Shown here one piece after another: positions 524 through 16,136 of a stretch of DNA of 32,000 nt. The notes below the pieces were generated by a model that saw only the letters and a list, made by a program, of their open reading frames with translations, did no database searches and was not told where the DNA came from. The first letter of the stretch is position 1, and every line of letters begins with the position of its first letter. Position numbers and translations under genes: made by a program. The stretch comes from Thiobacillus denitrificans DSM 12475 (GTDB lineage: Bacteria > Pseudomonadota > Gammaproteobacteria > Burkholderiales > Thiobacillaceae), in assembly GCF_000376425.1 (NCBI RefSeq), contig NZ_AQWL01000001.1, positions 348,846-380,845 of the forward strand. Direction: 5' to 3'.

Positions 524-526
524 GTT

Positions 527-2476: not shown

Positions 2477-2477
2477 C

Positions 2478-2987
2478 TCAATCTCCTGTGCGCAGGCTGC
2501 GCGTCTGGTTCAGCGGTAGATAAGTGAAATTCAGGATGCCGTCGACCACCGGTTCCAGCCGCCATACACCGTCGAGCACCTGGCCGGCGTGTACGCTCAC
2601 CGGCACCGTGCCGCGGGCCAGGTACCAGGTGGTGTGGCCGGCCTCCTGCCAGCGTCCCATGTAGCTGAATGGCAGAGCCGGCGCCTGCGGGGGCGGCAGT
2701 GGCACATAAGGGGGCGGCGGTGGCGGGGGCGGCGGCACGAACCAGGTCTGTTCGGGAAACAGGTTGGCACGGGAAAGCGCCAGCCGCGGCGCCGCTGCCT
2801 GAGGGCTGGCCGGCACGATGACGGGCCGGCCGGTGGCGCGCGGGCGCGCACGCGCCACGGGTTCGGCCAGCTCGAGTCCGGCATCGCCTGCTTCGGTGGC
2901 CGGTTCGTCGAGCGCCAGCCAGATCGACCACGCTACTGCGCCGGCCAACACGGCGAACAGAACCCGGCGCCGTTGTGTTTCGCTCAT
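2478..2987 (-). CDS. PilP/GspC-HR-like inner-membrane assembly protein, proline-rich
   Basis: 169 aa. One N-terminal TM (VLFAVLAGAVAWSIWLAL), a PPPPPPPPP linker, and a C-terminal beta-rich segment (FSYMGRWQEAGHTTWYLARG..VLDGVWRLEPV) resembling PilP/GspC HR domains. ATGA overlap with the upstream gene. Confidence 0.45.
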   Translation of the reverse strand: MSETQRRRVLFAVLAGAVAWSIWLALDEPATEAGDAGLELAEPVARARPRATGRPVIVPASPQAAAPRLALSRANLFPEQTWFVPPPPPPPPPYVPLPPPQAPALPFSYMGRWQEAGHTTWYLARGTVPVSVHAGQVLDGVWRLEPVVDGILNFTYLPLNQTRSLRTGD

Positions 2988-3511
2988 GGCGTCGCCTCCA
3001 TGAACAGGCTCAGGTGCAACTCGGCCTGCAGCTCGCCGGATTCGATGCGATCACGCTTCAGCTTCAGCTCGTCCAGCGTCAGGTTGGGTTGGCGTTCCAG
3101 CGCCGCCGCGATGAAAGCATGCAGTGCCGGGTAGGAAGTCACAACCGGTAGCACCAGCTGCCAGCGTTGCAGCGGGGTGGCCGCCAGCGGCGACACGCTG
3201 TATTGCCCGCGCGGCAGGTCGAATCCGTGCGCGCGCGCCAGCCGTTCCAGTTCGCCGATCTGCTGTGCCGCCGCTCCTGCCGGCGGCAGCTCGGCCAGCG
3301 GATTGAATGGCACCGGTGCTGGCGCGGCCGGCCGCGCGGTGGTCACGTGCAGCGCGGCCAGGCGTTCGTGCTGAGCGGCGACCGCCCGCTGCACCGAGGA
3401 AACCTGGACGCCCTGCAGCAGCAGCGCGCCCGCCAGCAGTCCCAGCCCGGCCAGGCCGCCGGCGCCGAGGCGGCGCGCCCATTGTCGCAGTTGCCAGATC
3501 AGATTTGTCAT
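2984..3511 (-). CDS. PilO/GspM-like assembly protein
   Basis: 175 aa with an N-terminal TM (GLAGLGLLAGALLL), a coiled segment and an alpha/beta C-terminal domain. Its position and size match PilO/GspM. ATGA overlaps on both sides. Confidence 0.5.
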   Translation of the reverse strand: MTNLIWQLRQWARRLGAGGLAGLGLLAGALLLQGVQVSSVQRAVAAQHERLAALHVTTARPAAPAPVPFNPLAELPPAGAAAQQIGELERLARAHGFDLPRGQYSVSPLAATPLQRWQLVLPVVTSYPALHAFIAAALERQPNLTLDELKLKRDRIESGELQAELHLSLFMEATP

Positions 3512-4026
3512 GCGCCCAGCTCCACCAGGATAGTGATGCGCACCGGATGCTGTCCGGCGTCGGCCTGCGCCTCGTGCTGGGTCAGCGTGGCACGCTTCAC
3601 CCCCGGCTGCTGTTGCAGCGCGTCGATGAAGGCGACGGCATCGGCAAGCTGCCGCGCTTCGGCCACCAGCTTGAGCTGCGACTTGGCCTGCACGGCGTCG
3701 AGCGAGAGCAGCGCGATCCTGGCGCTGCGCGCCGTGGCCAGTGCGTCGAACGCCGGCTGCCAGGAATGGCCGAGCTGTGCCGCGATGCGTGCCTGGGCTG
3801 CGTGTGCCGCACTGTCGGCGCGCGTGGCGGGTTGTGCCGTCGCGCGCGGCTGGGCCCGTTCGAGCGCGGCGATCCGCAGCGCCAGCCCGGTCTCGGCAGC
3901 GCGCGCCGCCTGCAGATTGCTCCAGGCCCAGCCCAGTGCCGCCATGCCGGCCAGCGCCAGCGCAATGCTCAGCCTGGCGGGACGCGAGGAGCGCGCATGG
4001 AAATCGAAATCGAGCCGCATTGTCAT
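3508..4026 (-). CDS. PilN-like assembly protein
   Basis: The track ORF 3508-4413 overlaps the upstream gene. The internal ATG at 4026 (MTMRLDFDFH...) forms an ATGA overlap with that gene's stop at 4023. This gives 172 aa with a TM (LSIALALAGMAALGWAW), a coiled coil and a PilN-type C-terminal domain. Confidence 0.5.
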   Translation of the reverse strand: MTMRLDFDFHARSSRPARLSIALALAGMAALGWAWSNLQAARAAETGLALRIAALERAQPRATAQPATRADSAAHAAQARIAAQLGHSWQPAFDALATARSARIALLSLDAVQAKSQLKLVAEARQLADAVAFIDALQQQPGVKRATLTQHEAQADAGQHPVRITILVELGA

Positions 4027-4781
4027 ATTCCCGCCAACGCCAGTGCGCCGCGGAGTTGCGTGTCGTGCGGCAGCACCTGCCAGCGGGTACCGGCGGAATC
4101 CGGCGCTGCCACCGTGCCGGTGCCCAGCGCCTGAATCCAGGTCGCAGCGGGGAGGGGCTGCGCCATCAGCGCGGCCTCGCGTTCGATCAGCTCGGGCAGT
4201 GTCGCGGCCCAGCCGTCGTCGACCGGCTGGCCGGCGACGTGTCGCCAGATGCCGTTTGCCGAACCGAACAGGCTCAGCCAGCCCGGCTCGACCAGCGCCC
4301 ACCAGCCAGCCAGCCGCTGCGGCAGGCGACGCGCAGCGACGCTGGCGAGCGGGCGGATCGTCACATCGCGAAAACCATGGCGAGCCAGCAGCGCATCCAG
4401 TTGCCGGACCCACGCCGCATCCATCGCGGCGCCGAGCAGGCCATGTTGCGGTGGCTGGCTGAGCACCTGCACGTTCCAGTGCTCGGCCTCGTCGCCATAG
4501 ATGTCGCGCAGGCTGGCCGTCACCAGAGCGCGCTCCTCGGCAGGCGCGAGCGCCTTGCCGGGCGGCGGCGTCAGCACATGGCGAACGAAGTGCTGCGACA
4601 CCACCACCTCGGCGCGGCGGCTGCGCCAGGCGGCATCGGCGAGGGCATCGTCGAGCAGCGGCAGCAGGCTCGCCGCGCCGCGTTCATGGCTGGCGAGCAC
4701 GCGGCTGTCGCGTGCGCGCAGCAGCGCGGCTTCGCCGGGAATGAGCGCGATGCGCAAGGAATCAGCCGACCAGCGTGACAC
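4023..4781 (-). CDS. GspL-cytoplasmic/PilM-like assembly protein (no TM)
   Basis: 252 aa, soluble. Pattern VVVSQHFVRHVLTPPPGKALAPAEERALVTASL is typical of GspL/PilM N-terminal regions. GTG start overlaps the gspE 3' end by 20 nt. Confidence 0.4.
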   Translation of the reverse strand: MSRWSADSLRIALIPGEAALLRARDSRVLASHERGAASLLPLLDDALADAAWRSRRAEVVVSQHFVRHVLTPPPGKALAPAEERALVTASLRDIYGDEAEHWNVQVLSQPPQHGLLGAAMDAAWVRQLDALLARHGFRDVTIRPLASVAARRLPQRLAGWWALVEPGWLSLFGSANGIWRHVAGQPVDDGWAATLPELIEREAALMAQPLPAATWIQALGTGTVAAPDSAGTRWQVLPHDTQLRGALALAGI

Positions 4782-6438
4782 GGTTGATCTCCTCCAGGGT
4801 GGTGTCGCCCGACTTCACCAGCGCGAGCGCCGCCTCGCGCAGGCTGCGGGTGCCGCCGCGCGCGGCGGCTTCCTTGATCTGGCCAATCGGCGCGCGCGCC
4901 ACGATCAGTTCGCGTAGTTCGTCAGTCAGCAGCAGTATTTCGGCGACGGCGCGGCGGCCCTTGTAGCCACTGCCGCGGCAGTGGCCGCAGCCGCTGCCCT
5001 GGCGAAATTCGTAGTCGCGGGTCTTCTCGAGCGTCAGGCCCGACAGTTCGAGCAGGTCGTCGGCGGGCACGACCGGCGCGGCGCAATGCGGGCAGTTCAC
5101 CCGCAGCAGACGCTGCGCCACGATGCCATTGAGCGCCGATACGAAGCTGTAGGGGTCGACGCCCATGTGAATGAAGCGGCCGATGACGTCGAACACGTTG
5201 TTGGCGTGCACGGTGGTGAACACCAAGTGGCCGGTGAGCGCCGACTGCACCGCGATCTGCGCGGTGTCGGCGTCGCGGATCTCGCCGACCATGATCTTGT
5301 CGGGGTCGTGGCGCAGAATCGAGCGCAGGCCGCGCGCGAACGTCAGTCCCTTCTTCTCGTTGACCGGAATCTGCAGCACGCCTGGCAGCTGGTATTCGAC
5401 CGGGTCCTCGATGGTGACGATCTTGTCGCGGCCGTGGTTGATCTCGGAAATCGCCGCGTACAGCGTGGTGGTCTTGCCCGAGCCGGTCGGCCCGGTCACC
5501 AGCAGCATGCCGTAGGGCTCGGCTGCCAGCTTGCGGATGCGCGCCAGCGTCGCCCCGGCGTAGCCGAGGCCTTCCAGCGTGAGGCCCGAGAGTTCTTCCG
5601 ACAGCGCCTGCCGGTCCAGGATCCGCAGCACCGCATCTTCGCCGAATACGCTCGGCATGATCGACACCCGCACGTCGACCTCGCGCCCCTGCATCGACAC
5701 CTTGAAGCGGCCGTCCTGCGGCACCCGGCGCTCGGCGATGTCGAGTTCGGCCATCACCTTGATGCGCGACACCGCCTGTTCGGCAACTTCGACTCCCGCG
5801 GCGTGGGCGATATGCGACAGCACGCCGTCGATGCGGTATTTCACCGTCAGGCCGCGCGGATCGGTTTCCATGTGGATGTCGGAGGCGCCGGCTTTCAGCG
5901 CGTCGTACAGCGTCGAGCGCACCAGCCGCACTACCGGGCTGGCGTCCTCGGCGATGCTGGCGAACGACAGGGTTTCGGCGCCGGAGTCCGGCGCCGCCTG
6001 CGTGCTGCCGCCGCCCACGCCCTCCATCGCGCGCAGGCCCTCCTCGTGGCGCGCCAGCAGTGCCGCCAGATCGGCGGGGTGGGCGAGCCCGGTCTTGAAC
6101 GGCGTTCCCAGCACATGCCCGGCATAGGCCCGGCTGGCACTGTCCCAAGGATCGGTCAGCAGCAGCCAGGGTTGTCCGTCACCATCGCGTGCGGCCAGGC
6201 AATGCCGGCGCGCGGCCTCGTTGAAGCCGAGTTTGCCGAAGTCAGCGGTCAGTGCGTTCAGCCCGGCCATGTCGAAGGCGGGCTGGCGGCAATGGGCGGC
6301 CAGCAGATGCAGCGTGGCGTCGGCGTCGAGGCCGAACTGCTCCTGCAGCCTCAGTATCACGGACTGGCCGGCAGCGTGCGCTTCCTGGCGCAGGCTGGCC
6401 AGGGCGGCGGCGGTGAGGGCGGGTTGCGGTGCGTTCAC
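4762..6438 (-). CDS. gspE: type II secretion ATPase GspE
   Basis: Walker A GPTGSGKTT, Asp/His boxes, tetracysteine CPHC...CGHC. The track ORF (to 7026) overlaps gspF. GTG at 6438 (VNAPQP...) makes a GTGA overlap with the gspF stop, giving 558 aa. Confidence 0.9.
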   Translation of the reverse strand: MNAPQPALTAAALASLRQEAHAAGQSVILRLQEQFGLDADATLHLLAAHCRQPAFDMAGLNALTADFGKLGFNEAARRHCLAARDGDGQPWLLLTDPWDSASRAYAGHVLGTPFKTGLAHPADLAALLARHEEGLRAMEGVGGGSTQAAPDSGAETLSFASIAEDASPVVRLVRSTLYDALKAGASDIHMETDPRGLTVKYRIDGVLSHIAHAAGVEVAEQAVSRIKVMAELDIAERRVPQDGRFKVSMQGREVDVRVSIMPSVFGEDAVLRILDRQALSEELSGLTLEGLGYAGATLARIRKLAAEPYGMLLVTGPTGSGKTTTLYAAISEINHGRDKIVTIEDPVEYQLPGVLQIPVNEKKGLTFARGLRSILRHDPDKIMVGEIRDADTAQIAVQSALTGHLVFTTVHANNVFDVIGRFIHMGVDPYSFVSALNGIVAQRLLRVNCPHCAAPVVPADDLLELSGLTLEKTRDYEFRQGSGCGHCRGSGYKGRRAVAEILLLTDELRELIVARAPIGQIKEAAARGGTRSLREAALALVKSGDTTLEEINRVTLVG

Positions 6439-7619
6439 TGGATCGATCCCGCCAGGTCGAAGATCGGCATATAGAGCAGCACCACGATCAGGCCGATGGT
6501 GAGGCCGATGAACACCATCAGCAGCGGCTCGAACAGGCGGGTGAACCAGTCCACCCAGCGCGCCATTTCCTCGTCGTGAAAAATGGCGATGCGCTCCATC
6601 ATCTCGCCCATGCGGCCACTTTTCTCGCCGACGCGCAGCAGTCGCGCGGCCACCGGCGTGGTCAGCTTGCCGCGGGCGAACGCCGCCGAGATGGTTTCGC
6701 CGCGACGCATCGTCTCCATCGCCGTCGCCGCGCCGCCGCGCAGGTGCGCCGAAAGCAGCCCCGATACCATGCCGAGCGCCTGGACGACGGGAATGCCGCC
6801 GGCGAGCAGCATGCCGAGGCTGCGGTAGAAGCGGGCCAGTTCGAAGGTGCGCAGATGCTCGCCGATCGCCGGGAGTCGCCAGGCCAGGCGGGTGAGCGCG
6901 GCGCGGGTGGCGGGCTGCGACAGCACGGCGACCAGGCTGGCGACCAGACCCAGCGCGCCCAGCGCAACCCAGCCGCCGTGCGCTCCGACCGCCTCGCCCC
7001 AGGCCAGCAGCATGCGCGACATCCACGGCAGGTCGCGTCCGGCGTCGGCATACACGGTGGCGAAGCGCGGCACCACGTAGCCGAGCAGAAAACCGATCAC
7101 CAGCGTACCGACGCCGATCAGCAGCATCGGGTAAATCGACGCCGACAGCACTTTCTTCTTTACCGTGTCGATCTGGTTCTGATAGCCGAGGTAACGGGCC
7201 AGCGCGGGCGAGAGGTCGCCGGTGCTCTCGGCCGCGCGCACTGTAGCGGTATACAGGGGCGGGAATGCATCGCCCTGCGTGGCGAGTGCGGCCGAAAACG
7301 GGCGGCCTTCGCGCATGGTGGCAAGCAGGCGCTCGATCAGCTGGCGCGATTCGGGGCGGCTTTCCTTCTCGGCCAGGGTTTCCAGCGCCTCGGTCAGGGT
7401 CAGTCCGGCATCCAGCAGCGCGATCAGTTCCTGCGTGAACAGCAGCAGCGGAAAGCGTATGCGCCGTGCCGCCAGCCAGCCCGCGCGCTCGGCGACGATG
7501 GACAGCACCTGCGCACCTTCGCGCTGCAGCCGCGCAGTGACCTCGGCCTCGTCGAGCGCTTCCAGCGTCAGCGCCGTGACTCCCGCACCCGGGCGCAAGG
7601 CTTTTACCCGGTAGCGCAT
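6435..7619 (-). CDS. gspF: type II secretion inner-membrane platform protein GspF
   Basis: 394 aa with two GspF repeats and three TM segments (e.g. SIYPMLLIGVGTLVIGFLLGYVVP; EPLLMVFIGLTIGLIVVLLYMPIF). Confidence 0.9.
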   Translation of the reverse strand: MRYRVKALRPGAGVTALTLEALDEAEVTARLQREGAQVLSIVAERAGWLAARRIRFPLLLFTQELIALLDAGLTLTEALETLAEKESRPESRQLIERLLATMREGRPFSAALATQGDAFPPLYTATVRAAESTGDLSPALARYLGYQNQIDTVKKKVLSASIYPMLLIGVGTLVIGFLLGYVVPRFATVYADAGRDLPWMSRMLLAWGEAVGAHGGWVALGALGLVASLVAVLSQPATRAALTRLAWRLPAIGEHLRTFELARFYRSLGMLLAGGIPVVQALGMVSGLLSAHLRGGAATAMETMRRGETISAAFARGKLTTPVAARLLRVGEKSGRMGEMMERIAIFHDEEMARWVDWFTRLFEPLLMVFIGLTIGLIVVLLYMPIFDLAGSIQ

Positions 7620-8054
7620 TTACCAGTTGCCGATGTCGGCGCCGTCGCCGCTGCCGCCGGGTGCGCCATCGCGGCCAAACGAGAAGATGTCCACCTCGCC
7701 GCGCTCGCCGGGCATGCGGTATTGATACGGCTTGCCCCAGGGATCGTTCGGCACCGCTTTCTTCAGATAGGGGCCGTCCCAGCGCGCTTCGTCGGCAGGC
7801 TTGGTGTTCAGCGCGGCCAGGCCCTGCTCGATGCCGGGGTAATGACCGGTGTCGATGCGGTATTGGTCGAGCGCCTTTTCCAGCGCGCCGATCTGGGCCT
7901 GCGCTGTCTTGACTTCGGACTTGCCGACCTGGGAGAAATACTTGGGTGCCACATAACCTGCCAGCAGCCCCAGAATCACCAGCACCACCAGCAGTTCGAG
8001 CAGGGTGAAGCCGCCGCTGCGGCCGGGGCCGGATGTCGCGATGAATGGAAACAC
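7620..8054 (-). CDS. gspG: major pseudopilin GspG
   Basis: GG|FTLLELLVVLVILGLLAGYVAPKY, then GspG hallmarks (LDQYRIDTGHYP, WDGPYLKK, PNDPWGKPYQY, SFGRDGAPGG...DIGNW). I place the start at GTG 8054, preceded by AGAGG at 7 nt, rather than the track's ATG 8177. Confidence 0.85.
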   Translation of the reverse strand: MFPFIATSGPGRSGGFTLLELLVVLVILGLLAGYVAPKYFSQVGKSEVKTAQAQIGALEKALDQYRIDTGHYPGIEQGLAALNTKPADEARWDGPYLKKAVPNDPWGKPYQYRMPGERGEVDIFSFGRDGAPGGSGDGADIGNW

Positions 8055-8671
8055 AATCTGACCTCTGTGTGGTTGTCCGCCGTGGAATGGATGGATTGCC
8101 TGAGATGCGTGCCGGCGTCCCCGGACGACGGGCAGGGGAGGGGCAACTGTCGTGGAGTTGAATTGAAACAGCCGCATGTTACCGGCGTGTTAAAAGTGGG
8201 AATCAGGCTCGCCAGGCCGTCTTGCCTCGCCGGAAGCAAAGCGGTCGTTGTCTTGAATTGCGTGGGATATCGGGGTGCCGGGCAACGGGGTACCGGGACG
8301 CATCGCCGTCCGATGCCGCACCGGAGCATGGAAGAATCGCGCTGTCGCTGAAAGCGGCGGCCCGCCCGAAAACGGGATGCCAGGCGCCAGTCGAATATTG
8401 ACGGACAAAATGATCACCCATGCAGTCTCCCCCTGCCGATGCAACGATCACGATTTGTTATCCGCAAATTGCCGGCGTGCCGGGCCGCTGGCTTATTTGA
8501 TTTATGGCTGTGAACTTATCACGCGGATTTTCAAGCGGTCAATATGTTCTGATTTTTAATGGGTATTGGCTTGCTCTGGCCGTCTATCGTCATTTGCGTA
8601 GAACCAGGGAAATAAACGGCGCTTGTGCCTGGCGAACGGTCGGAACCGAATGCGCTGTAATTCGCATGCGA

Positions 8672-8701
8672 TTGACAAATCCATAAACCTACGGATAGAG
8701 T
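8672..8701 (+). promoter_or_regulatory. candidate sigma70 promoter for the rhs locus
   Basis: TTGACA (8672-8677), an 18-nt spacer, then TAGAGT (8696-8701), about 100 nt upstream of ATG 8799. Motif match only. Confidence 0.25.
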
Positions 8702-8798
8702 CCGGACCACATCACGGCCCGCGCAACGCACGCGAGCCGACCCTGCGGAAGAACAAACAAAACAATTCAAAGCAATTTCCGAAGGGGAGGGAAGAATC

Positions 8799-9233
8799 AT
8801 GTCGAATGGGGTGAGTTCGTTCGCGCAAGGCGTGCGAGAGCTGTTTGTAGTCGCGACGGTATTTTCTTTGTTTACCGTAATTTTTTACGGAGCAAACGCC
8901 GCTGCAAACAATCAAGGATTCAAAGGGTGGTCTTGGTATATAAATCAAGCACTTTTCGACAGTGCAGAAGAAGCCTGTAAGGCCTACCCTCCCTACAATT
9001 ACACGTACTCCCCTAATACAAACTGTTGTTATTTTGAGTTTACTGGAGTGTTGGCCAACCCGGCCTATCCCCAGTACAAGGACTGTCAATTTGCGATTGT
9101 CAACCTGACTGATCCGTTATACAACGATCCATCCAAAAGCAGACTTACGGTTTATCCATACTTCGACACTGTCTCTGGTAGAACGCAGGTAATTCGTGCC
9201 CGACAACGCCCAATCCAATTACGATCGGCATAG
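8799..9233 (+). CDS. signal-peptide N-terminal segment of the Rhs protein, out of frame with the core (probable frameshift)
   Basis: ATG preceded by GGGGAGGGAAG. Sec-like signal (LFVVATVFSLFTVIFYG-ANA|AANN). Four Cys. The ORF terminates at 9233, inside the region where the rhs frame is already open (from 9182). Confidence 0.55.
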   Translation: MSNGVSSFAQGVRELFVVATVFSLFTVIFYGANAAANNQGFKGWSWYINQALFDSAEEACKAYPPYNYTYSPNTNCCYFEFTGVLANPAYPQYKDCQFAIVNLTDPLYNDPSKSRLTVYPYFDTVSGRTQVIRARQRPIQLRSA

Positions 9234-12200
9234 GCAATAAGTTTCTAGCTGAGACCGATAGTAATACCAGCACACAAACGCTGACTCTGCGACGCTATTA
9301 CAACAGCGTATCGCCTGTGACTACTAGCTTTGGAGTGAGTTGGCGGCACTCATATAAACGTCAAATTTTCTTGAGTACGTCAACGGCGGTGACAGTGAGA
9401 CGTCCTGACGGAAAGTCACTTAACTTTCAACTGAGCGGCAGCACTTGGATTGGTGACGCCGACATTGCCGATACCCTAGTCCAACTTTCCAGCTCCGCTG
9501 GCTGGCGCTACACCATGGCCGCCGACGACTCCGTCGAACTCTACGATGCGAGTGGTAAGCTGCAATCACTCACCGACCGCGCCGGCCGCACCGAAACTCT
9601 AACTTACAGCGACGGCACCGCGGGTACTAATGGCGGCTACGTCCTCGACGCCTTTGGCAGCCCGACCCTGGCCGTTCTTTCCGTCGGCCAATTGATTCGC
9701 GTCACCGACGCTACCGGCAACGTCCTCAATTTCGGTTACGACGCCTTGTCCCGCATTATCAAGCTGACCGATCCTTCCGGCGGAATCTACGCTTACGTTT
9801 ACGACACAAACGGCAATCTCGTCTCCGTCCAGTATCCCGACGGCAAGAGCAAGACCTACCTATACGAGAACCCTACTTTCCCGCATGCCCTAACCGGCAT
9901 CGTTGACGAGAATGGCGACCGCTACGCCACCTACCGCTACGACAGCCAGGGACGCGCCTACGACGAAGACCACGGCGGCTCGGTCGATCACTACAATCTC
10001 GCCTACACCACGGACGCCAATGGCAACCCCGTCTCGACCACCGTCACCGACCCCATGGGTACCCAGCGCACCTACAACTTCACTACCATATTGGGTGCCG
10101 TCAAGAGCACCGGCGTCTCCCAGCCCGGCGGCTCCGGCTGCAGCGCTGCGTCCTCCGCCATAGCCTACGACGCCAATGGCAACGTCGCCAGTCGCACTGA
10201 CTTCAACGGCCACACTACCTGCCACGCCTACGACCTGACGCGCAACCTCGAAATCGCCCGCGTCGAAGGCCTGGCATCCAGCACCAACTGCCCGAGTAAC
10301 CTCGCTACCTACACCCCCACCGCCAATAGCGTCGAGCGCAAGATACTCACCCAGTGGGACAGCCGCTTCCGCCTGCCCGTCAAGATCACAGAGGCCGGTC
10401 GCGAAACCAGCACCGTCTACGACAGCCGTGGCAACCCTACCATCCGCAGCATCAAGGACCTCGCCAGCGGCCAGACTCGCACCTGGAGCACCAGCTACAC
10501 CTACCATGCCAGCGTTCCCGGCGTCCTAGTCCAGAAAATTGAAGACGGCCCGCGCACCGACGTCAGCGATCTCACCACCACAGACTACTACGCCCCCGAC
10601 GAGAACTGCACCGGCGATCCCCTGGGCTGCCGTGGCCAGCTCAAGCAGATCACCAATGCTCTCGGCCACATCACAACCTATGACGAATACGACGCCAACG
10701 GCCGTGCCCTCCGGATCACCGACCCCAACGGCCTCGTCAGCACTTATACCTATAGTCCGCGCGGCTGGCTCGAAACCCGCAGTGTCGGCGGTGAGCTGAC
10801 CCGCTTCGACTACGACTACGTCGGCCAATTGATCAAACTCGCCCGTCCTGACGGCAGCTACGTCAGCTTCGAATACGACCCCGCCCACCACCTCACCACC
10901 ATTGTCGACCAGGACGGCGGCCGCCTCACTTACACCTTCGACGCCATGGGCAACCGCACTCATGAAGCGATCACCGGCCTCGGCGGCAGCACCGTCTACT
11001 ACGCTCACAGCCGCACCTTCGACGCCTTGGACCGCCTGTGGCAGGACATCGGCGCCGCCAACCAGACCGTCACCTACCAGTACGATGCCCAGGGAAACCT
11101 GAAACAGATCGACGGCGCCCGCACCGACGTCGCCGACGTCACCAGCCACGGCTACGGCGCCCTCGACCGCCTCATCCAGACGCTGAACGCCGACGGCGGC
11201 GTCGAGCAATACAAACCCAACACCCTCGGCCAGGTCACAAACGTTGTCGATCCGGCCAACCAGGCCACCGTCTACACCCGCAACGCCTTCGGCGACATCG
11301 TCCAGACCCAGAGCGCGGGCACCGGCACCACCACCCGCACCTTCGACGGAGCCGGCAACACCAAGACCGAGACCGACGCGCGGAACGTGACCGCCACCTA
11401 TAGCTACGACGCCTTGAACCGGCTTGTCCAGAAACAGAGCAGCCAGAGCGGTGCTCCGGTCTACCAGTATTTCTACGACGACTGCGGCAAAGGCTTCCTG
11501 TGCTGGGTACAGCGCAACGGCAGCTTCCACCTTTACTTCAGCTACGACCTACACGGCCGGCAGACCTACCAGCTATCCGCCATCGACAACTGGTACTTCG
11601 GTGTGTACAGCTACCGCCCCGGCGGACAGATCGAGACTGTGACTTATCCCAGCGGCCGCAGCGTCACCTACGGCTACGACGCCCAGGGGCGTGTCAGCCA
11701 GGTGAAGACCCGCAAGAACGCGGCCGACTCCGAGACCGTGCTGGCAAGCAACTTCAGCTATATCTACCCTTTCACCGGCCCGCAGAGCTTTAGCTACGGC
11801 AACGGCAGCGGGTTCTATCTAAGACGCGACCAGGACTATCGCCCTTCGTACCATTTCGACGGCCCGAGCTACAAACTCTATGGCCACGACCTCGCCGGCA
11901 ACGTTGCCAGCATCGTGGACATCAACAATACCCTGCTGACTTACGCCTATGACAGCACCGGCCGTCTCGTCTCCGCCATTGACAGCGCCGCCAACAGCTT
12001 CGGCAGCCTTGCCTGGGCTTACGACAAGAATGGCAACCGCCAGAGCGAGACCCGCAACGCCGGCACCATGCCCTACGTCTACAGCCCGCCCAACTGGCTG
12101 TATCAGGCCGGCAGCGATACGCGAACCAGAACCGCCTACGGCAACACCGCATCCACCAGCACTGCCAGCTTCACTTACGATGGCTACAACCGGCTTGCCA

Positions 12201-13012
12201 CCAGCCAGACCGCAAGCGAAACCACCACCTACAGCTACAACGCCCTCGGCCAGCGCATCAGGAAGATCAACCAGAACGGACTTGCCACCGCTTTCCACTA
12301 CGGCCCGAACGGCGAACTGCTGTACGAGCAGGACCAGGCCGGCAACACCAAGGCCTACGTCTGGCTCGACGGAAGACCATTGGCAAGAATCGACAACAAC
12401 GCACAGATTTATTACTACCACGTCGATCATCTGGGGACGCCGCAAGCAATGACGAACAGTATGGGAACCACTGTGTGGAAGGCGAACTACGAGCCGTTCG
12501 GCAAGGCGACAGTGACGACCAGCACTGTCGAGAATAACCTGAGACTGCCAGGGCAGTACTTCGATCGGGAGACGAACCTGCATTACAACTACGCAAGGGA
12601 TTACGATCCGGGGACGGGCCGGTATATCGAGGCCGATCCGATCGGGCTCAGTGGCGGCATTAATCTCTACACCTATGCGGAGGGGAATCCCGTCACGAAG
12701 ACAGACCGGTTAGGATTATTTTGTGGGTCGGGTTGGAACGAGGTATTTGTTCCCGATTTATTTCCGGGCGGCGTCGATTTTTCCTCTGCATGTCATAAGC
12801 ACGATATTTGTTACAGTAAGTGCGGTACGCAAAAAAACTCATGTGACCAGAATCTACTGTCGGATGCGCTCGCAGAATGTGAAAAATCCCCTCTCAACTC
12901 CCTTGTCCGAAATCAATGCATGATGACTGCCACTTGGTACTGGGAAGCCGTAGGCCGGTGGGGACAAGGTGCTTTCGACAACGCGCAACGTAGTTGCAGC
13001 TGTAAACAGTGA
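9182..13012 (+). CDS. RHS/YD-repeat toxin (core plus C-terminal toxin domain)
   Basis: The frame is open from 9182 and already encodes Rhs N-terminal motifs (NPITIGIGNKFLAETD, LTLRRYYNS, FGVSWRHSY). There is no ATG/GTG/TTG before GTG 9317, the track start. Dozens of YD repeats (YDxxGR/N), then YYYHVDHLGTP and PGQYFDRETNLHYNYARDYDPGTGRYIEADPIGL-x18-DRLGL, then a 97-aa CT. Confidence 0.9.
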   Translation, partial: NAGNSCPTTPNPITIGIGNKFLAETDSNTSTQTLTLRRYYNSVSPVTTSFGVSWRHSYKRQIFLSTSTAVTVRRPDGKSLNFQLSGSTWIGDADIADTLVQLSSSAGWRYTMAADDSVELYDASGKLQSLTDRAGRTETLTYSDGTAGTNGGYVLDAFGSPTLAVLSVGQLIRVTDATGNVLNFGYDALSRIIKLTDPSGGIYAYVYDTNGNLVSVQYPDGKSKTYLYENPTFPHALTGIVDENGDRYATYRYDSQGRAYDEDHGGSVDHYNLAYTTDANGNPVSTTVTDPMGTQRTYNFTTILGAVKSTGVSQPGGSGCSAASSAIAYDANGNVASRTDFNGHTTCHAYDLTRNLEIARVEGLASSTNCPSNLATYTPTANSVERKILTQWDSRFRLPVKITEAGRETSTVYDSRGNPTIRSIKDLASGQTRTWSTSYTYHASVPGVLVQKIEDGPRTDVSDLTTTDYYAPDENCTGDPLGCRGQLKQITNALGHITTYDEYDANGRALRITDPNGLVSTYTYSPRGWLETRSVGGELTRFDYDYVGQLIKLARPDGSYVSFEYDPAHHLTTIVDQDGGRLTYTFDAMGNRTHEAITGLGGSTVYYAHSRTFDALDRLWQDIGAANQTVTYQYDAQGNLKQIDGARTDVADVTSHGYGALDRLIQTLNADGGVEQYKPNTLGQVTNVVDPANQATVYTRNAFGDIVQTQSAGTGTTTRTFDGAGNTKTETDARNVTATYSYDALNRLVQKQSSQSGAPVYQYFYDDCGKGFLCWVQRNGSFHLYFSYDLHGRQTYQLSAIDNWYFGVYSYRPGGQIETVTYPSGRSVTYGYDAQGRVSQVKTRKNAADSETVLASNFSYIYPFTGPQSFSYGNGSGFYLRRDQDYRPSYHFDGPSYKLYGHDLAGNVASIVDINNTLLTYAYDSTGRLVSAIDSAANSFGSLAWAYDKNGNRQSETRNAGTMPYVYSPPNWLYQAGSDTRTRTAYGNTASTSTASFTYDGYNRLATSQTASETTTYSYNALGQRIRKINQNGLATAFHYGPNGELLYEQDQAGNTKAYVWLDGRPLARIDNNAQIYYYHVDHLGTPQAMTNSMGTTVWKANYEPFGKATVTTSTVENNLRLPGQYFDRETNLHYNYARDYDPGTGRYIEADPIGLSGGINLYTYAEGNPVTKTDRLGLFCGSGWNEVFVPDLFPGGVDFSSACHKHDICYSKCGTQKNSCDQNLLSDALAECEKSPLNSLVRNQCMMTATWYWEAVGRWGQGAFDNAQRSCSCKQ
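12719..13009 (+). other. CT1 toxin domain of main Rhs, phospholipase A2-like motifs
   Basis: Begins right after DRLGL. Carries FCGSGW and ACHKHDICYSKC, has 9 Cys in 97 aa and ends RSCSCKQ. GC drops sharply here. Confidence 0.6.
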
Positions 13013-13019
13013 GAGAAAT

Positions 13020-13316
13020 ATGGAAGAGAAAACAGTAGGAGTTCTAGTCTTCACAGCGCTAACATTGCTGAACAGTATAGGTTGCCATTATTTTATTCGT
13101 TCCTATTTCTTAGCCAGCATGTTTGCTGCTGGCCTAACGACAATCATCGGTCAATTAGCTTTCAGAATCCATTATGGGTACTGGGATCCATTCTTAATGA
13201 TTTCATTGGTGACAATGAGTTTGCTTGCATTGTTGCTTTCCCTCGCCATAGGCCTCCCATTTTATCTAAGTCGGCGCTGGCGCCGACGCCCCTACAAATC
13301 AAATGGGCCGAGCTGA
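13020..13316 (+). CDS. putative immunity protein 1 (small 3-TM membrane protein)
   Basis: ATG at 13020, 8 nt after the rhs stop, preceded by GAGAGA. 98 aa with three hydrophobic helices. Low GC. Assigned from its position directly 3' of the toxin domain. Confidence 0.6.
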   Translation: MEEKTVGVLVFTALTLLNSIGCHYFIRSYFLASMFAAGLTTIIGQLAFRIHYGYWDPFLMISLVTMSLLALLLSLAIGLPFYLSRRWRRRPYKSNGPS

Positions 13317-14007
13317 CGTCTGGCTCGACGGCCGCCCGCTCGCCTGGATCGATAACGACGCGCAGATTTATTACTATCACGTCGATCACCTGGGGACGCC
13401 GTGGGCGATGACGAACCAAGCAGGAACGGTCGTCTGGAAGGCGAACTACGAACCCTTCGGCAAGGCGACGGTGACGATCAATACGGTCGAGAATAACCCC
13501 AGACTTCTTGGGCAGTACTTCGACCGGGAGACCGGGATGCAGTACAACTACTTTAGGGGTTATGACCCGACAACGGGCCGGTATATCGAGGCCGATCCGA
13601 TTGGGTTGCAAGGGGGCATGAATCTCTATGCCTATGTTGAAGGAAATCTGCTGAGTTACGTGGATCCCAATGGCCTCACAAAAGTCCATGGCAATTGGTG
13701 TGGCCCTGACTGGACTGGTGGCCACGCTGAGCAGTACACACCAGTGAGTGCCAAGTTATATTCCCCCCCTGTTGATGGCTTAGATACGGCCTGTCAATCA
13801 CATGACATTTGCTATTACCAATGCCGTAAGGCTCATCCCTGTGATCCTCCTAAAAGATCTACCTGCTTTAGGTCTTGCGATGGGCAATTAACAATAGATG
13901 CGTCTTGGGGAGAGAGCATTATGTCATCCGTAATTGTGCGAACAATGCAAAGAAATGGCATTAGGGACCCAGGGCCAAACAGTACAAATTGTTCCTGCGG
14001 AGAATAA
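13303..14007 (+). CDS. orphan Rhs C-terminal module 2 (core tail plus PLA2-like CT2)
   Basis: Homology to main rhs (from YVWLDGRPLARIDNNAQIYYYHVDHLGTP) starts about 13315, at the immunity-1 stop. DPIGL-x18-DPNGL, then CT2 (13678-14004) with NWCGPDWTGG and ACQSHDICYYQC. 9 Cys, ends NCSCGE. Confidence 0.8.
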   Translation: MGRADVWLDGRPLAWIDNDAQIYYYHVDHLGTPWAMTNQAGTVVWKANYEPFGKATVTINTVENNPRLLGQYFDRETGMQYNYFRGYDPTTGRYIEADPIGLQGGMNLYAYVEGNLLSYVDPNGLTKVHGNWCGPDWTGGHAEQYTPVSAKLYSPPVDGLDTACQSHDICYYQCRKAHPCDPPKRSTCFRSCDGQLTIDASWGESIMSSVIVRTMQRNGIRDPGPNSTNCSCGE

Positions 14008-14050
14008 CCACAGAAATATTTCCACTAGTGCATCGAAAGGGATTTAAAAC

Positions 14051-14329
14051 ATGCTTTTGTCTATAGGCATCACAGCTTTCGCCTCAATACTGACAGCATT
14101 TTTATGTTGGAGATTAAAAAGTCTAGCTTTACGGATTGCGATAGTTGCGCTGATCTCATTTAGTGTTTCTTATGTACTTTACTGGTTGCCGGTTTGGCGA
14201 GGAGCAACGGATGACCAATATTCAACATGGGCTCCGATGGTTATTGGTATTTGCTTTGTGGCGGGACTCATTGGTGGCGGGATAGGACTCTTGGTCGTAG
14301 CTTGGAAAAAAGCGAGGCAAATACCATAG
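14051..14329 (+). CDS. putative immunity protein 2 (small 3-TM membrane protein)
   Basis: 92 aa, AAAGGGA RBS, three hydrophobic helices, low GC, immediately 3' of CT2. Confidence 0.6.
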   Translation: MLLSIGITAFASILTAFLCWRLKSLALRIAIVALISFSVSYVLYWLPVWRGATDDQYSTWAPMVIGICFVAGLIGGGIGLLVVAWKKARQIP

Positions 14330-14330
14330 C

Positions 14331-14944
14331 GGCCACATCGCCACCAACGGCTACGACGTCGAAGGGCGCATCAGTCAGAAAAGACAAATGAAAGACAAAT
14401 GGGGTCACGATTATGCAACAAGTACCACCGCGAGCGAGACGACGACCTACACCTACAATGCCCAGGGTCAGCGCATCAAGAAGATCAACCAGAACGGGCT
14501 CGCCACCAGCTTCCACTACGGCCCCGACGGCGAACTACTGTACGAGCAGGACTAGGTGGGCAACAACAAGGTCTACGTCTGGCTCGACGGACGATCGCTG
14601 GCGCGGATCGACAACAACCAGCAGGTCTACTACTACCACGTCGATCGCCCCAGCACGCCGTGGGCGATGACGGACCACAAGCAGGGACGATCGTCTGGAA
14701 GACGAACTATGAGCCGTTCGGTAAGGCGACGGTGACGACCAGCACTGTCGAGAATAACCTGAGGCTGCCAGGGCAGTACTTCGATCGGGAGACGAACCTG
14801 CATTACAACTACGCAAGGGATTACGATCCGACAGCGGGCCGGTATATCGAGGCCGATCCGATTGGGCTTGAAGGGGGCCTAAATGTTTACAGCTATGTGA
14901 ATGGCAATCCGTTAAACAGGATTGATCCGAAGGGACTGGACTAA
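14331..14944 (+). pseudogene. orphan Rhs core tail 3, degraded
   Basis: The Rhs-like frame starts at 14331 (NGYDVEGRISQ...TASETTTYTYNAQGQRIKKINQNGLATSFHYGPDGELLYEQD). In-frame TAG at 14553-14555. A 1-nt deletion near 14686 shifts the frame. HVDHLGTP is changed to HVDRPSTP. The tail ends DPIGL-x18-DPKGLD followed by TAA 14942-14944. Confidence 0.8.
14381..14402. repeat. 11-nt tandem duplication at an orphan-module junction
   Basis: AAGACAAATGA AAGACAAATGG. Confidence 0.5.
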
Positions 14945-15235
14945 GTGCCACCGCTGGTTCCGCCTGCAGCTAATGGCAACTATTCAACCGATTTTACAAA
15001 GCAAGATGGTGTTTGCAGCGCTCCCGCAGGTGTTCTAAATGGCAACTCTTGTACGCGCAAATGCTGTGAAAACCACGATAATTGCTACACCAAATACCAC
15101 TGCAATGCATCATCATGGATTAGCAATTTACTGGGTTACGGCTTTGCATGTCAGCAATGCAATGCTGAGGCAGAAAAATGCGTCATCGAAAATCTTGAAA
15201 AACATGACTGTGATAGCGATAAGTGTAAGAAGTGA
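14945..15235 (+). CDS. CT3, PLA2-like toxin ORF separated from its Rhs tail by an in-frame stop
   Basis: GTG directly after the TAA, in the same frame as the Rhs tail. 96 aa, 11 Cys, KCCENHDNCYTKYHC (compare the sPLA2 active site CCxxHDxCY). Confidence 0.6.
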   Translation: MPPLVPPAANGNYSTDFTKQDGVCSAPAGVLNGNSCTRKCCENHDNCYTKYHCNASSWISNLLGYGFACQQCNAEAEKCVIENLEKHDCDSDKCKK

Positions 15236-15246
15236 GGGCTCATCTC

Positions 15247-15615
15247 ATGAATAAACCTATTGGGACGCTATTCGCACTAGCAATTGCTTTTTTTTTTATT
15301 GCTTTAGGCATATGGCACATTTTGGGGGGTGCGGCGCCACTTGGTGGTAGTCAGGGAGACACATCTTTTTTTCCGGTATGGTATCCCGTTATGATTCTTT
15401 GCGCGGGATTGCTTGGCTTTTTCTTCCCATCTGCCGCTTGGCTAGTAGGGCCGATGATGCTGGCGACACAAAGCGTGTTGGACGTTTGGTTCTCTCCTTA
15501 TGAAGCAAATCTTTGGCCAATTGGCATGGCTATACAATTCGTCTTGGCGATTCCCCTGGTTCTTTCTGGACTTGGCGGTCGATTCCTCACAAAAATAATA
15601 AAACGGGCGGATTAA
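15247..15615 (+). CDS. putative immunity protein 3 (small 4-TM membrane protein)
   Basis: ATG 15247 preceded by GAGGG at 8 nt (the track start GTG 15232 is less likely). 122 aa, about four hydrophobic helices, low GC. Confidence 0.6.
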   Translation: MNKPIGTLFALAIAFFFIALGIWHILGGAAPLGGSQGDTSFFPVWYPVMILCAGLLGFFFPSAAWLVGPMMLATQSVLDVWFSPYEANLWPIGMAIQFVLAIPLVLSGLGGRFLTKIIKRAD

Positions 15616-15640
15616 CGAAGCGCAATCCGCTTGGTGGCTG

Positions 15641-15668
15641 AATCAAAGGCAATCAAAGGGAATCACAA
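15641..15668. repeat. 10-nt tandem repeat at an orphan-module junction
   Basis: AATCAAAGGC AATCAAAGGG AATCACAA, immediately 5' of the orphan-4 core tail. Confidence 0.5.
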
Positions 15669-16136
15669 TACAACTACTTCAGGGATTACGATCCGGGGAC
15701 GGGCAGGTACCTGGAATTCGACTTGATTGGGTTGCGCGGCGGGCTCAACGGGTACTTATACGCGAACGCCGATCCGCTGACCTATACCGATCCTTTTGGA
15801 CTTGCGCCACCCACTATTTGCAATGGCCAGGATTGTGTAAATCCGCCATACGATCCGACACCCAGCGGTCTAAGACCAAGCCCGCAGCCGCGCCCTGATG
15901 GAAAGCCGCCCCGTGAATCGGGCCAGCCTGCACGCTACGATATTTGTCAGGATTTTGATCTGTTGAAAAAGCCGTGCAAAACTTGTGTTGACCTTGCATG
16001 TAATGTCTCGGCGGGCACACGCCAACTCTGCTGTGACGTTGATTTCCGCGACTGTTTTGCCAACGCGATCGACAATCCAGGAAAGCTGGCTGAATGCAAT
16101 GCGAAGCGGGCAGCCTGCGCGTTTAGGGGACGCTAA
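15666..16136 (+). CDS. orphan Rhs C-terminal module 4 (46-aa core tail plus Cys-rich CT4 of unknown activity)
   Basis: QYNYFRDYDPGTGRYLEFDLIGL-x18-DPFGL, then a 110-aa CT (15804-16133) with 11 Cys, no His, and a Pro-rich linker. No ATG or GTG is available; the track uses TTG 15723. Confidence 0.65.
   Translation, partial: QYNYFRDYDPGTGRYLEFDLIGLRGGLNGYLYANADPLTYTDPFGLAPPTICNGQDCVNPPYDPTPSGLRPSPQPRPDGKPPRESGQPARYDICQDFDLLKKPCKTCVDLACNVSAGTRQLCCDVDFRDCFANAIDNPGKLAECNAKRAACAFRGR

What the first reader, a model, noticed from the sequence alone, without database searches (positions are those of the whole stretch)
7620..13012. Sec-signal Rhs with disulfide-rich toxins and no T6SS markers, divergently paired with a T2SS-like operon
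The reconstructed Rhs N-terminus has a Sec-type signal (hydrophobic core plus ANA|A) instead of a PAAR or VgrG-binding domain. No vgrG, hcp, PAAR or chaperone gene lies in the 32 kb. All four CTs are Cys-rich (9-11 Cys each) and the N-domain has 4 Cys, which suggests folding in an oxidising compartment. The only secretion machine nearby is the T2SS-like operon, transcribed divergently from the same 745-bp spacer. T2SS substrates are Sec- or Tat-exported periplasmic intermediates. The hypothesis is that this Rhs is exported via Sec and the adjacent T2SS-like system, rather than by the T6SS route usual for Gram-negative Rhs toxins.
Basis: inference. Interest (0 to 1): 0.68.

Follow-up and report, generated by a model that had tools for sequence, protein, structure and literature searches.

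The report
Sec-signal Rhs phospholipase toxin locus, frameshifted
This is a decaying Rhs toxin locus of an already described class (signal peptide, YD shell, phospholipase-A2-like tips with membrane immunity proteins) in a Thiobacillus-like genome, and its position beside a type-II-secretion-like operon is confined to one lineage rather than a conserved pairing.

Summary
The sequence facts are correct. There is a Sec-like N-terminus (h-region, ANA|A). The 32 kb holds no T6SS marker. The four C-terminal tips carry 9, 9, 11 and 11 Cys. A gspG-F-E…secretin operon lies divergently across a 744-bp spacer.

- **The gene is broken.** A 1-nt deletion near 9186, also present in an independent assembly, separates the signal and N-domain from the Rhs body. 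CT3 is cut off by a stop codon.
- **The Cys-rich tips look like phospholipase A2** (C-x-x-H-D-x-C-Y in CT1-3). Each is followed by a small multi-pass membrane protein.
- **Sec export is well supported.** None of 120 core relatives has PAAR, and about 41-45 of 52 with a complete N-terminus start with a classical signal peptide.
- **The class is known.** Signal peptide plus RHS plus Tox-PLA2 was catalogued in 2012. A T2SS-dependent RHS bacteriocin, Xanthomonas Bcn-A, was reported in 2020.
- **The link to this operon is weak.** The operon is conserved in 80 betaproteobacterial loci with variable neighbours. Rhs/YD genes lie nearby only in some Thiobacillus-clade loci. The same Rhs type, with the same 5' leader, sits in at least four other contexts without T2SS genes.

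Verdict: a new member of a known kind. A T2SS route is plausible but not supported by gene linkage.

The parts
44..523 (-). Pseudopilin, the last operon gene inside the window
   Evidence: N_methyl motif, weak GspG/GspH similarity. In T. denitrificans RG (L029) one to two further pseudopilin ORFs follow it.
527..2476 (-). Secretin with an N-terminal TPR region and an STN domain
   Evidence: Secretin 9.4e-42, STN, Secretin_N and TPR. It scores 176 bits against both GspD and PilQ models, below both cut-offs.
2478..4781 (-). Four small operon genes: 169 aa (no family), T2SSM_b-like 2984-3511, PilN-like 3508-4026, 252 aa 4023-4781 (no family). Presumed assembly platform.
   Evidence: Weak T2SSM_b (3.2e-06) and PilN (0.005) matches. 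Gene calls come from identical contig L006. Order is conserved in 80 loci.
4762..6438 (-). GspE-type secretion ATPase
   Evidence: T2SSE 1.3e-124. GspE 488 bits versus PilB 468 bits, both below equivalog cut-offs.
6435..7619 (-). GspF-type inner-membrane platform protein
   Evidence: T2SSF 4.2e-51. TIGR02120 270 bits against a cut-off of 424.
7620..8054 (-). GspG major pseudopilin
   Evidence: TIGR01710 180.8 bits, above the equivalog cut-off of 88.85. Called as 144 aa in L006.
8660..8798 (+). Rhs-associated 5' module: promoter-like TTGACA-18-TAGAGT (8672-8701), UTR hairpin, A-rich tract and strong Shine-Dalgarno sequence
   Evidence: Promoter scan. The module is conserved before Rhs genes in at least 5 different genomic contexts, with some compensatory changes. 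No Rfam match.
8799..9186 (+). Rhs 5' part: signal peptide (aa 1-34, ANA|A) and a roughly 95-aa N-domain with 4 Cys. It ends at a 1-nt deletion.
   Evidence: Real homologues are only P0001 (86-87% identity) and P0054 (36-38%).
9182..12721 (+). Rhs body in the -1 frame: DUF6531 plug, YD shell, RHS core ending in DPIGL
   Evidence: DUF6531 4.2e-12, RHS_repeat 3.4e-74 over 10 stretches, RHS 5.9e-16. The frame is open from 9182.
12722..13012 (+). CT1, a PLA2-like toxin tip (ACHKHDICY), 9 Cys
   Evidence: Pfam PLA2G12 1.8e-05 and prokaryotic PLA2 7.9e-05, both below cut-off. PDB PLA2 chains 7ygk, 8k1w and 4aup at E 0.006-0.04, aligned over the motif.
13020..13316 (+). Putative immunity protein 1, about 98 aa with 3 hydrophobic segments
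   Evidence: Hydropathy scan. No family match. Role is inferred from position.
13303..14007 (+). Orphan module 2: core tip plus CT2 (ACQSHDICY), 9 Cys
   Evidence: RHS 2.1e-15 and weak PLA2. The CT2 family (GNWCGPDWTGG…HD.CY) is found on Rhs tips elsewhere. Model pLDDT is 73 and the top-5 PDB fold hits are all PLA2, but with E 0.8-4.
14051..14329 (+). Putative immunity protein 2, 92 aa, multi-pass membrane
14399..15235 (+). Orphan module 3: core tip to 14941, in-frame stop 14942-14944, then CT3 (CCENHDNCY), 11 Cys
   Evidence: Three-frame translation. PLA2_1 is the only Pfam hit, at E 0.15.
15232..15615 (+). Putative immunity protein 3, 127 aa, multi-pass membrane
15657..16136 (+). Orphan module 4: short core tip plus CT4, 11 Cys, no recognisable family
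16136..16423 (+). Putative immunity protein 4, 95 aa, multi-pass membrane
16551..17087 (+). Rhs core remnant (16551-17032) fused to a 55-nt antisense gspE fragment (17033-17087). A rearrangement scar.
   Evidence: RHS_repeat 7e-20. The fragment encodes RAIAEILLLTDALRELIV on the minus strand. It is 82% identical to the window's own gspE over 44 aligned nt and 83-96% identical to gspE in other Thiobacillus-clade loci (best: L021, 96%). It is also present in L001.

Best explanation
This is an rhs polymorphic-toxin locus of the Sec-dependent class, in a Thiobacillus-like betaproteobacterium.

**Ancestral protein and steps**
- The layout is signal peptide, short variable Cys-bearing N-domain, DUF6531 plug, YD shell, RHS core with the DPxGL self-cleavage site, and a phospholipase-A2-like tip.
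- SecYEG exports the precursor. Signal peptidase cuts after ANA. The protein folds and forms disulfides in the periplasm. These three steps are inferred.
- It then leaves the cell by a route not shown here. A T2SS acting in trans is the best candidate, by analogy with Xanthomonas Bcn-A.
- The PLA2-like tip attacks envelope phospholipids of competitors. The small multi-pass membrane protein encoded after each tip protects the producer. This is inferred.

**State of the locus**
- Three orphan tip-plus-immunity modules and a core remnant record past tip replacement.
- In this strain the main gene is inactivated, or at least uncoupled from its signal peptide, by a 1-nt deletion. CT3 is cut by a stop codon.

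**The neighbouring operon**
The T2SS-like operon next door is a conserved housekeeping-type cluster. Its gspG-proximal side is a variable region where accessory DNA accumulates. The Rhs sits there in one sublineage only.
For: - **Domain content:**
- **Frameshift:** shown against L001 and reproduced in the independent assembly L008. The relative L001 is itself broken by a large internal deletion and has an IS downstream.
- **Signal peptides:** they are the rule in the clade and PAAR is absent. The cleavage site aligns with that of P0054.
- **PLA2 assignment:** HD motif in CT1-3; weak but consistent Pfam, PDB and fold hits.
- **Immunity candidates:** all four are multi-pass membrane proteins.
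- **Composition:** G+C is 50-56% in the N-domain and tips against 61-72% in the flanks.
- **Operon neighbourhood:** the operon order is conserved in 80 loci, with no conserved neighbour upstream of gspG. IS elements, an integrase-like ORF (by its N-terminal sequence only) and regulators are found there.
- **Other Rhs contexts:** the same Rhs type, with its own promoter and leader, occurs next to acrB, dksA-hpf-AAA_33 and a phosphorylase fragment. A Methylobacter relative lies next to an OEP-MFP-MacB pump. None has T2SS genes nearby.
- **Literature:** signal peptide plus RHS plus Tox-PLA2 is listed under 'T2SS/Sec' (PMC3482391). The Bcn-A RHS bacteriocin needs XpsD and has a predicted inner-membrane immunity protein (PMC7259588).
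Against: - No signal-peptide predictor was available. The 17-residue h-region plus ANAAA (about 22 hydrophobic residues) could also act as a signal anchor.
- PLA2 assignments are below curated thresholds. CT4 has no assignment.
- Rhs/YD genes of three different types lie within 10 kb of gspG in 5 of 25 Thiobacillus-clade loci, and L018 adds a leader trace. A gspE fragment is fused to an Rhs remnant. The neighbourhood may therefore not be purely accidental.
- The whole genome could not be searched for T6SS or a canonical T2SS.
Confidence: 0.68

Rival explanations
1. The adjacent T2SS-like machine is the dedicated outer-membrane exporter of this Rhs. The divergent pairing is a substrate-next-to-machine arrangement, as with pulA and pulC-O in Klebsiella.
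For: - The divergent arrangement, with a homologous spacer, is kept in the window, L001, L028 and L041. L018 carries the Rhs leader about 500 bp from gspG.
- Two other YD-protein types lie next to gspG in L043, L030 and L039.
- In more distant loci, large Ig/LamG or fn3 proteins and a multicopper oxidase set lie upstream of gspG.
- The gspE-Rhs junction scar shows that recombination tracts spanned both.
- Bcn-A shows that a T2SS can be required for an RHS toxin.
Against: - 0 of 45 non-Thiobacillus loci with this operon have an Rhs nearby. Most Thiobacillus-clade loci have unrelated neighbours.
- 4 of 4 other loci of the same leader-type Rhs, and the Methylobacter and metagenome relatives, have no T2SS gene within reach.
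- The Rhs brings its own promoter inside the mobile leader module, about 620 nt from gspG.
- The adjacent cases may be one inherited event plus a variable hot spot.
- Both the window and L001 copies are pseudogenes.
Confidence: 0.15
2. The hydrophobic N-terminus is an uncleaved signal anchor, or the protein is otherwise retained. The Rhs then stays in the envelope and reaches targets by vesicles, lysis or surface display rather than by a T2SS.
For: - The hydrophobic stretch is long: L15-G31, then ANAAA.
- The n-region has no net positive charge.
- L041 has two hydrophobic segments before ANA|D.
- Zhang et al. propose surface anchoring for lineage-specific N-domains placed after signal peptides.
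Against: - Small-x-small sites follow the h-region throughout the family, at the aligned position in P0054.
- Most relatives have short classical signal peptides of the MRK… type.
Confidence: 0.12
3. A T6SS-dependent Rhs that lacks PAAR and is loaded through an unlinked VgrG or adaptor. The hydrophobic N-terminus would be an effector transmembrane domain.
For: PAAR-less T6SS Rhs effectors exist: TseI (PMC7170923) and Tse15 (PMC11461821), listed. The genome outside the 32 kb was not searched.
Against: - No PAAR, prePAAR, VgrG, Hcp or Eag-type gene is in the window.
- No PAAR domain occurs in 120 relatives.
- No T6SS-type Pfam family appears among the gene calls of the four neighbourhoods returned with Pfam annotation.
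- Classical cleavable signal peptides across the clade are incompatible with cytoplasmic loading.
Confidence: 0.05

Closest known systems
Xanthomonas perforans Bcn-A (RHS-family bacteriocin, PMC7259588)
   Same: A large RHS/YD protein of a Gram-negative bacterium. Its activity is found in the supernatant and is lost in a T2SS secretin (xpsD) mutant. Its immunity protein is predicted to sit in the inner membrane.
   Different: Bcn-A needs accessory ORFs 2-4 and has a different tip. It depends on the canonical Xps T2SS, which is not reported as an adjacent gene cluster.
'T2SS/Sec-dependent' polymorphic toxins with RHS repeats and Tox-PLA2 tips (Zhang et al. 2012, PMC3482391)
   Same: The same architecture class: signal peptide, RHS repeats, PLA2-fold tip with the CxxH…Y motif. 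A lineage-specific N-domain after the signal peptide is also described there.
   Different: That class is defined in silico, with no signature neighbouring genes. Here there are small membrane immunity proteins and an adjacent T2SS-like operon. The N-domain is nearly unique to this lineage.
Bacillus subtilis WapA
   Same: A Sec-exported YD-repeat toxin with a polymorphic tip and an adjacent immunity gene (own knowledge; cited within PMC7259588).
   Different: WapA is from a monoderm and is wall-anchored, so no outer membrane has to be crossed.
T6SS Rhs effectors (P. protegens RhsA, A. baumannii Tse15, A. dhakensis TseI)
   Same: DUF6531-type plug, YD shell, RHS core with self-cleavage, orphan tip arrays.
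   Different: Those carry PAAR, prePAAR or a VgrG-binding N-terminus, lack a signal peptide, and sit in vgrG clusters. None of these features is present here.
Canonical Gsp T2SS with an adjacent substrate gene (Klebsiella pulA / pulC-O)
   Same: GspD/E/F/G homologues, with a candidate secreted protein transcribed divergently from the machine (own knowledge for pul).
   Different: No GspC/L/M was found. PilN- and T2SSM_b-like genes take their place. The secretin has TPR+STN at its N-terminus. Only GspG reaches the curated equivalog score.

Membership tests
Rhs / YD-repeat polymorphic toxin | YD (RHS) repeats forming the shell | tested here: met
   PF05593, 10 stretches, E 3.4e-74
Rhs / YD-repeat polymorphic toxin | RHS core domain ending in the DPxGL self-cleavage motif before a variable tip | tested here: met
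   PF03527 5.9e-16. DPIGL in the main gene; DPIGL, DPIGL and DLIGL in the orphans.
Rhs / YD-repeat polymorphic toxin | Small immunity gene directly after each tip | tested here: inconclusive
   Four small multi-pass membrane ORFs are in the expected positions. They have no family match and their function is untested.
Rhs / YD-repeat polymorphic toxin | Uninterrupted reading frame | tested here: not met
   1-nt deletion at about 9186, also in L008.
T6SS-delivered Rhs effector | PAAR, prePAAR or a VgrG-binding N-terminal domain | tested here: not met
   No such Pfam hit on either part of the protein. None among the precomputed domains of 120 relatives.
T6SS-delivered Rhs effector | Linked vgrG, hcp or chaperone genes | tested here: not met
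   Absent from the 32 kb. No such Pfam family appears in the gene calls for L013-L017 and L098-L101. The rest of the genome is not testable with these tools.
Sec/T2SS-class polymorphic toxin with Tox-PLA2 | Cleavable N-terminal signal peptide | tested here: met
   An h-region followed by ANA|A. The site aligns with ISIA|A of P0054. 41 of 52 relatives have a clear signal-type N-terminus. This is heuristic: no SignalP run and no experiment.
Sec/T2SS-class polymorphic toxin with Tox-PLA2 | PLA2 fold with a catalytic His-Asp in C-x-x-H-D-x-C-Y | tested here: inconclusive
   The motif is present in CT1-3 and invariant in an 11-sequence alignment. Pfam and PDB hits all point to PLA2 but fall below thresholds. 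The top-5 fold hits are PLA2 with E 0.8-4. CT4 has no assignment.
Sec/T2SS-class polymorphic toxin with Tox-PLA2 | Dependence on a T2SS to cross the outer membrane | not testable with these tools
   Needs secretome or competition assays in T2SS mutants.
Canonical type II secretion system (Gsp) | GspD, GspE, GspF and GspG | tested here: inconclusive
   All four Pfam families are present. Only GspG passes the NCBIfam equivalog cut-off. GspE scores 488 against 630, GspF 270 against 424 and GspD 176 against 351. The secretin scores equally as PilQ.
Canonical type II secretion system (Gsp) | GspC, GspL and GspM, plus a prepilin peptidase in the cluster | tested here: not met
   No hits. Instead there are weak PilN and T2SSM_b matches and two ORFs without a family. 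No peptidase is in the window or in L029.

The most novel reading that the evidence does not exclude
This betaproteobacterial T2SS variant has a PilN/T2SSM_b-type platform and a TPR-STN secretin. It could be a specialised exporter of very large periplasmic cargo, with the Sec-signal Rhs among its substrates. On this reading, selection keeps the divergent rhs-gspG pairing in a Thiobacillus sublineage. The evidence that leaves this open:
- Three unrelated YD-protein types lie near gspG.
- Ig/LamG/fn3 giant proteins lie upstream of gspG in other genera.
- A gspE-rhs junction scar links the two.
Probability: 0.15. Interest if true: 0.6.

Novelty: new member of a known kind. Interest (0 to 1): 0.3.

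Why it matters
How Sec-exported Rhs toxins of diderm bacteria cross the outer membrane is known from only one activity-level study, on Bcn-A. This locus adds evidence that Sec-signal, PAAR-less Rhs proteins form a large clade. The clade spans Thiobacillus, Nitrosomonas and Methylobacter, and its N-domains are hypervariable and bear Cys residues. Thiobacillus strains with an intact copy next to a T2SS-like operon would be a convenient place to test the export route. The window's own copy is a pseudogene and the class is already described, so the finding itself is modest.

Tried and rejected
- **N-domain co-occurrence.** A word-indexed search and a full HMMER scan of 1.84 billion representatives found only P0001. 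The P0002 and P0003 hits are eukaryotic mucin/SEA-repeat artefacts. P0054 emerged only through the core search. There is no slippery heptamer at 9180-9190, and the relative has one extra base there.\n- **Tat export.** Rejected. There is no twin-arginine motif.
Full report
**What is in the window**

The flanks have 61-72% G+C. The region 8000-16500 drops to 49-57%, except for the Rhs core at about 63%.

The minus strand from 44 to 8054 carries one operon:
- a pseudopilin;
- a secretin with TPR, STN, Secretin_N and Secretin domains;
- a 169-aa ORF;
- a T2SSM_b-like ORF;
- a PilN-like ORF;
- a 252-aa ORF;
- GspE, GspF and GspG.

Against NCBIfam, only GspG passes its equivalog cut-off (180.8 against 88.85). 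GspE, GspF and the secretin fall below theirs, and the secretin scores the same as GspD and as PilQ. No GspC/L/M and no prepilin peptidase were found. 'T2SS-like' is therefore the right label.

The right flank is housekeeping: a BON lipoprotein, catalase, chromate transporter, EamA, HAD, a methyltransferase, an amidohydrolase, GyrA, an aminotransferase and a dehydrogenase. The ORFs scanned against Pfam gave no VgrG, Hcp, PAAR or DUF1795 match.

By GspF identity (up to 91%) the organism is a Thiobacillus-like betaproteobacterium.

**The Rhs gene**

After a 744-bp spacer, an ORF at 8799 starts behind a strong Shine-Dalgarno sequence. It reads MSNGVSSFAQGVRE-LFVVATVFSLFTVIFYG-ANA|AANNQG and stops at 9233.

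The Rhs frame is open from 9182. It begins with the typical CPTTPNPITIGIGNKFLAETD (DUF6531) motif.

Alignment with the only close relative (L001, 93% DNA identity) shows that the window lacks one base at about 9186. In L001 the N-domain runs in frame into DUF6531.

L008 is an independent read-set assembly that differs from the window by a few SNPs. It has the same truncated 144-aa ORF. The frameshift is therefore real. There is no slippery site.

L001's own gene carries a large internal deletion and is followed by an IS. The gene is decaying in both lineages.

**The tips**

Cys counts are 9, 9, 11 and 11 for the four tips and 4 for the mature N-domain. The core has 8 Cys in 1173 residues.

CT1, CT2 and CT3 contain ACHKHDICY, ACQSHDICY and CCENHDNCY. 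The evidence for a PLA2 assignment is as follows:
- **CT1** hits Pfam PLA2G12 and prokaryotic PLA2 (E about 1e-5 to 1e-4, below cut-off). It also hits three PDB PLA2 chains, aligned over the motif (E 0.006-0.04).
- **CT2** belongs to a family of Rhs tips with an invariant C…W…D…AC..HD.CY…C…C pattern. Its model has pLDDT 73, and its five best PDB fold matches are all PLA2s. Those matches have non-significant E-values and TM-scores of about 0.2-0.4.
- **CT3** has only a PLA2_1 hit at E 0.15. It is separated from its core tip by an in-frame stop.
- **CT4** has no assignment.

Secreted PLA2s are inherently rich in disulfides, and this explains the Cys content.

Each tip is followed by a 92-127-aa ORF with three or four hydrophobic segments. 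These are presumed membrane immunity proteins.

A core remnant lies at 16551-17032.

**Is Sec export credible?**

Yes, for the family.
- The 120 best core relatives come mainly from Thiobacillus, Nitrosomonas, Methylobacter and Sulfuriferula MAGs. None has a PAAR domain.
- Of 52 relatives with at least 80 residues before the DUF6531 motif, 41 have a strong N-terminal h-region, typically MRK-h-region-FA|D. Several of the other 11 are also signal peptides, or are truncated.
- The N-domains that follow are variable and bear several Cys residues.
- P0054 is the only distant homologue of the window's N-domain (36-38% identity). Its predicted cleavage site is at the aligned position.
- No predictor such as SignalP was available. 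A signal-anchor reading of the long hydrophobic stretch cannot be excluded.

**Is the neighbouring operon linked?**

*Looking out from the operon.* A scan of one genome per species returned 80 loci, with GspF identity of 49-91%.
- All 80 keep the gene order G-F-E-252-PilN-Mb-169-secretin-pseudopilin.
- The genes upstream of gspG fall into hundreds of unrelated clusters, and no neighbour is conserved.
- Rhs/YD proteins occur there only in Thiobacillus-clade loci.
  - L028 and L041 have the same type, divergent, with a homologous spacer.
  - L018 carries a trace of the leader.
  - L043 has a truncated DUF6443-type YD protein.
  - L030 and L039 have another type, co-directional with the operon.
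- That is 5 of 25 Thiobacillus-clade loci with at least 1.5 kb of upstream sequence, and 0 of 45 others.
- Elsewhere the neighbours are IS elements, an integrase-like ORF (identified by its N-terminal sequence only), regulators, sugar transferases, Ig/LamG or fn3 giant proteins, and a multicopper-oxidase set.

*Looking out from the Rhs.* Genes with the same MSNGMRSCAQG leader lie after acrB (L016), after dksA-hpf-AAA_33 (L098) and after a phosphorylase fragment (L101). L102 has only a short, unannotated upstream ORF.
- A Methylobacter relative lies opposite an OEP-MFP-MacB pump.
- tblastn with all the operon proteins finds nothing in any of these loci, nor in three metagenome loci.

I had no proper background rate for Rhs density. 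The 5/25 figure therefore cannot be called significant, and the adjacent cases may be as few as three independent events.

**Comparison with what is known**

Zhang et al. 2012 list 'T2SS/Sec-dependent: signal peptide' as the most common route for polymorphic toxins. RHS is among the repeats they list, and Tox-PLA2 is assigned to T2SS with RHS repeats.

Marutani-Hert et al. 2020 showed that Bcn-A, a 1398-aa RHS-family bacteriocin of X. perforans, is active in supernatant. The activity is lost in an xpsD mutant, and the immunity protein is predicted to be in the inner membrane.

The architecture and the idea of T2SS-dependent Rhs export are therefore not new. The only new proposal is physical pairing with a variant machine, and the comparative data do not back that as a rule.

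**Verdict**

- Sec export: yes.
- A T2SS route: plausible by precedent.
- This operon as the dedicated exporter: about 15%.

The locus is a new member of a known kind, pseudogenised in this strain, and of modest interest.

Noticed in passing
window 8660-8850; also L001, L028, L041, L016, L098, L101, L102: A conserved module of about 170 nt precedes Rhs genes in at least 5 different genomic contexts. It contains a promoter-like TTGACA-18-TAGAGT, a 5'UTR hairpin (GGCCCGCG-CAACGCA-CGCGAGCC) with some compensatory changes, an A-rich tract, a strong Shine-Dalgarno sequence, and a second hairpin (CGTGCGC-GCAAG-GCGCACG) inside codons 7-13. The shared 'MSNGMRSCAQG' peptide may therefore be conserved as RNA. 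There is no Rfam match. It could be an undescribed cis-regulatory leader of rhs genes.
   Followed up: partly
window 17033-17087 (and L001 about 14780-14835): A 55-nt antisense fragment of gspE is fused directly to the Rhs core remnant. It is only 82% identical to the window's own gspE (4894-4950, over 44 aligned nt) but up to 96% identical to gspE of other Thiobacillus MAGs. It looks like the junction of a duplicated or imported [gspE'-gspF-gspG-rhs'] segment.
   Followed up: partly
window 44-8054; loci L018-L097: The operon gspG-F-E, 252-aa ORF, PilN-like, T2SSM_b-like, 169-aa ORF, TPR-STN secretin and pseudopilins keeps strict gene order across Thiobacillus, Sulfuricella, Gallionellaceae, Methylophilaceae, Rhodocyclaceae and Rhodoferax. 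It lacks GspC/L/M. I found no paper describing this variant.
   Followed up: partly
L056, L091, L094, L076, L093, L077 (upstream of gspG): In several non-Thiobacillus loci the genes co-directional with and upstream of gspG encode very large Big_9/He_PIG/Laminin_G_3 or fn3 proteins. Others encode a multicopper oxidase, SCO1 and cytochrome c set. These could be cargo of the system.
   Followed up: no
L013-L015 (Methylobacter), 10001-16070; also L104: Many Methylobacter-type relatives are called as two adjacent ORFs about 10 nt apart. The first is about 740 aa (signal, N-domain, DUF6531, half a shell). The second is about 1280 aa (Flg_new_2, shell, RHS core). Protein lengths of 700-760 aa recur in the hit list. 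This is either a conserved split or a recurrent interruption.
   Followed up: no
window 14942-14944: An in-frame stop codon lies exactly between the DPKGLD core tip and CT3 of orphan module 3. CT3 can restart at the GTG at 14945.
   Followed up: yes
L029 4700-9100 (T. denitrificans RG): In this genome an IS1595-family transposase lies next to gspG. Beyond it are a Bac_transf/CoA_binding_3 sugar transferase and a SurA-like PPIase. I recall this pairing from exopolysaccharide loci, but did not test it. The gspG-proximal side is a variable region.
   Followed up: no
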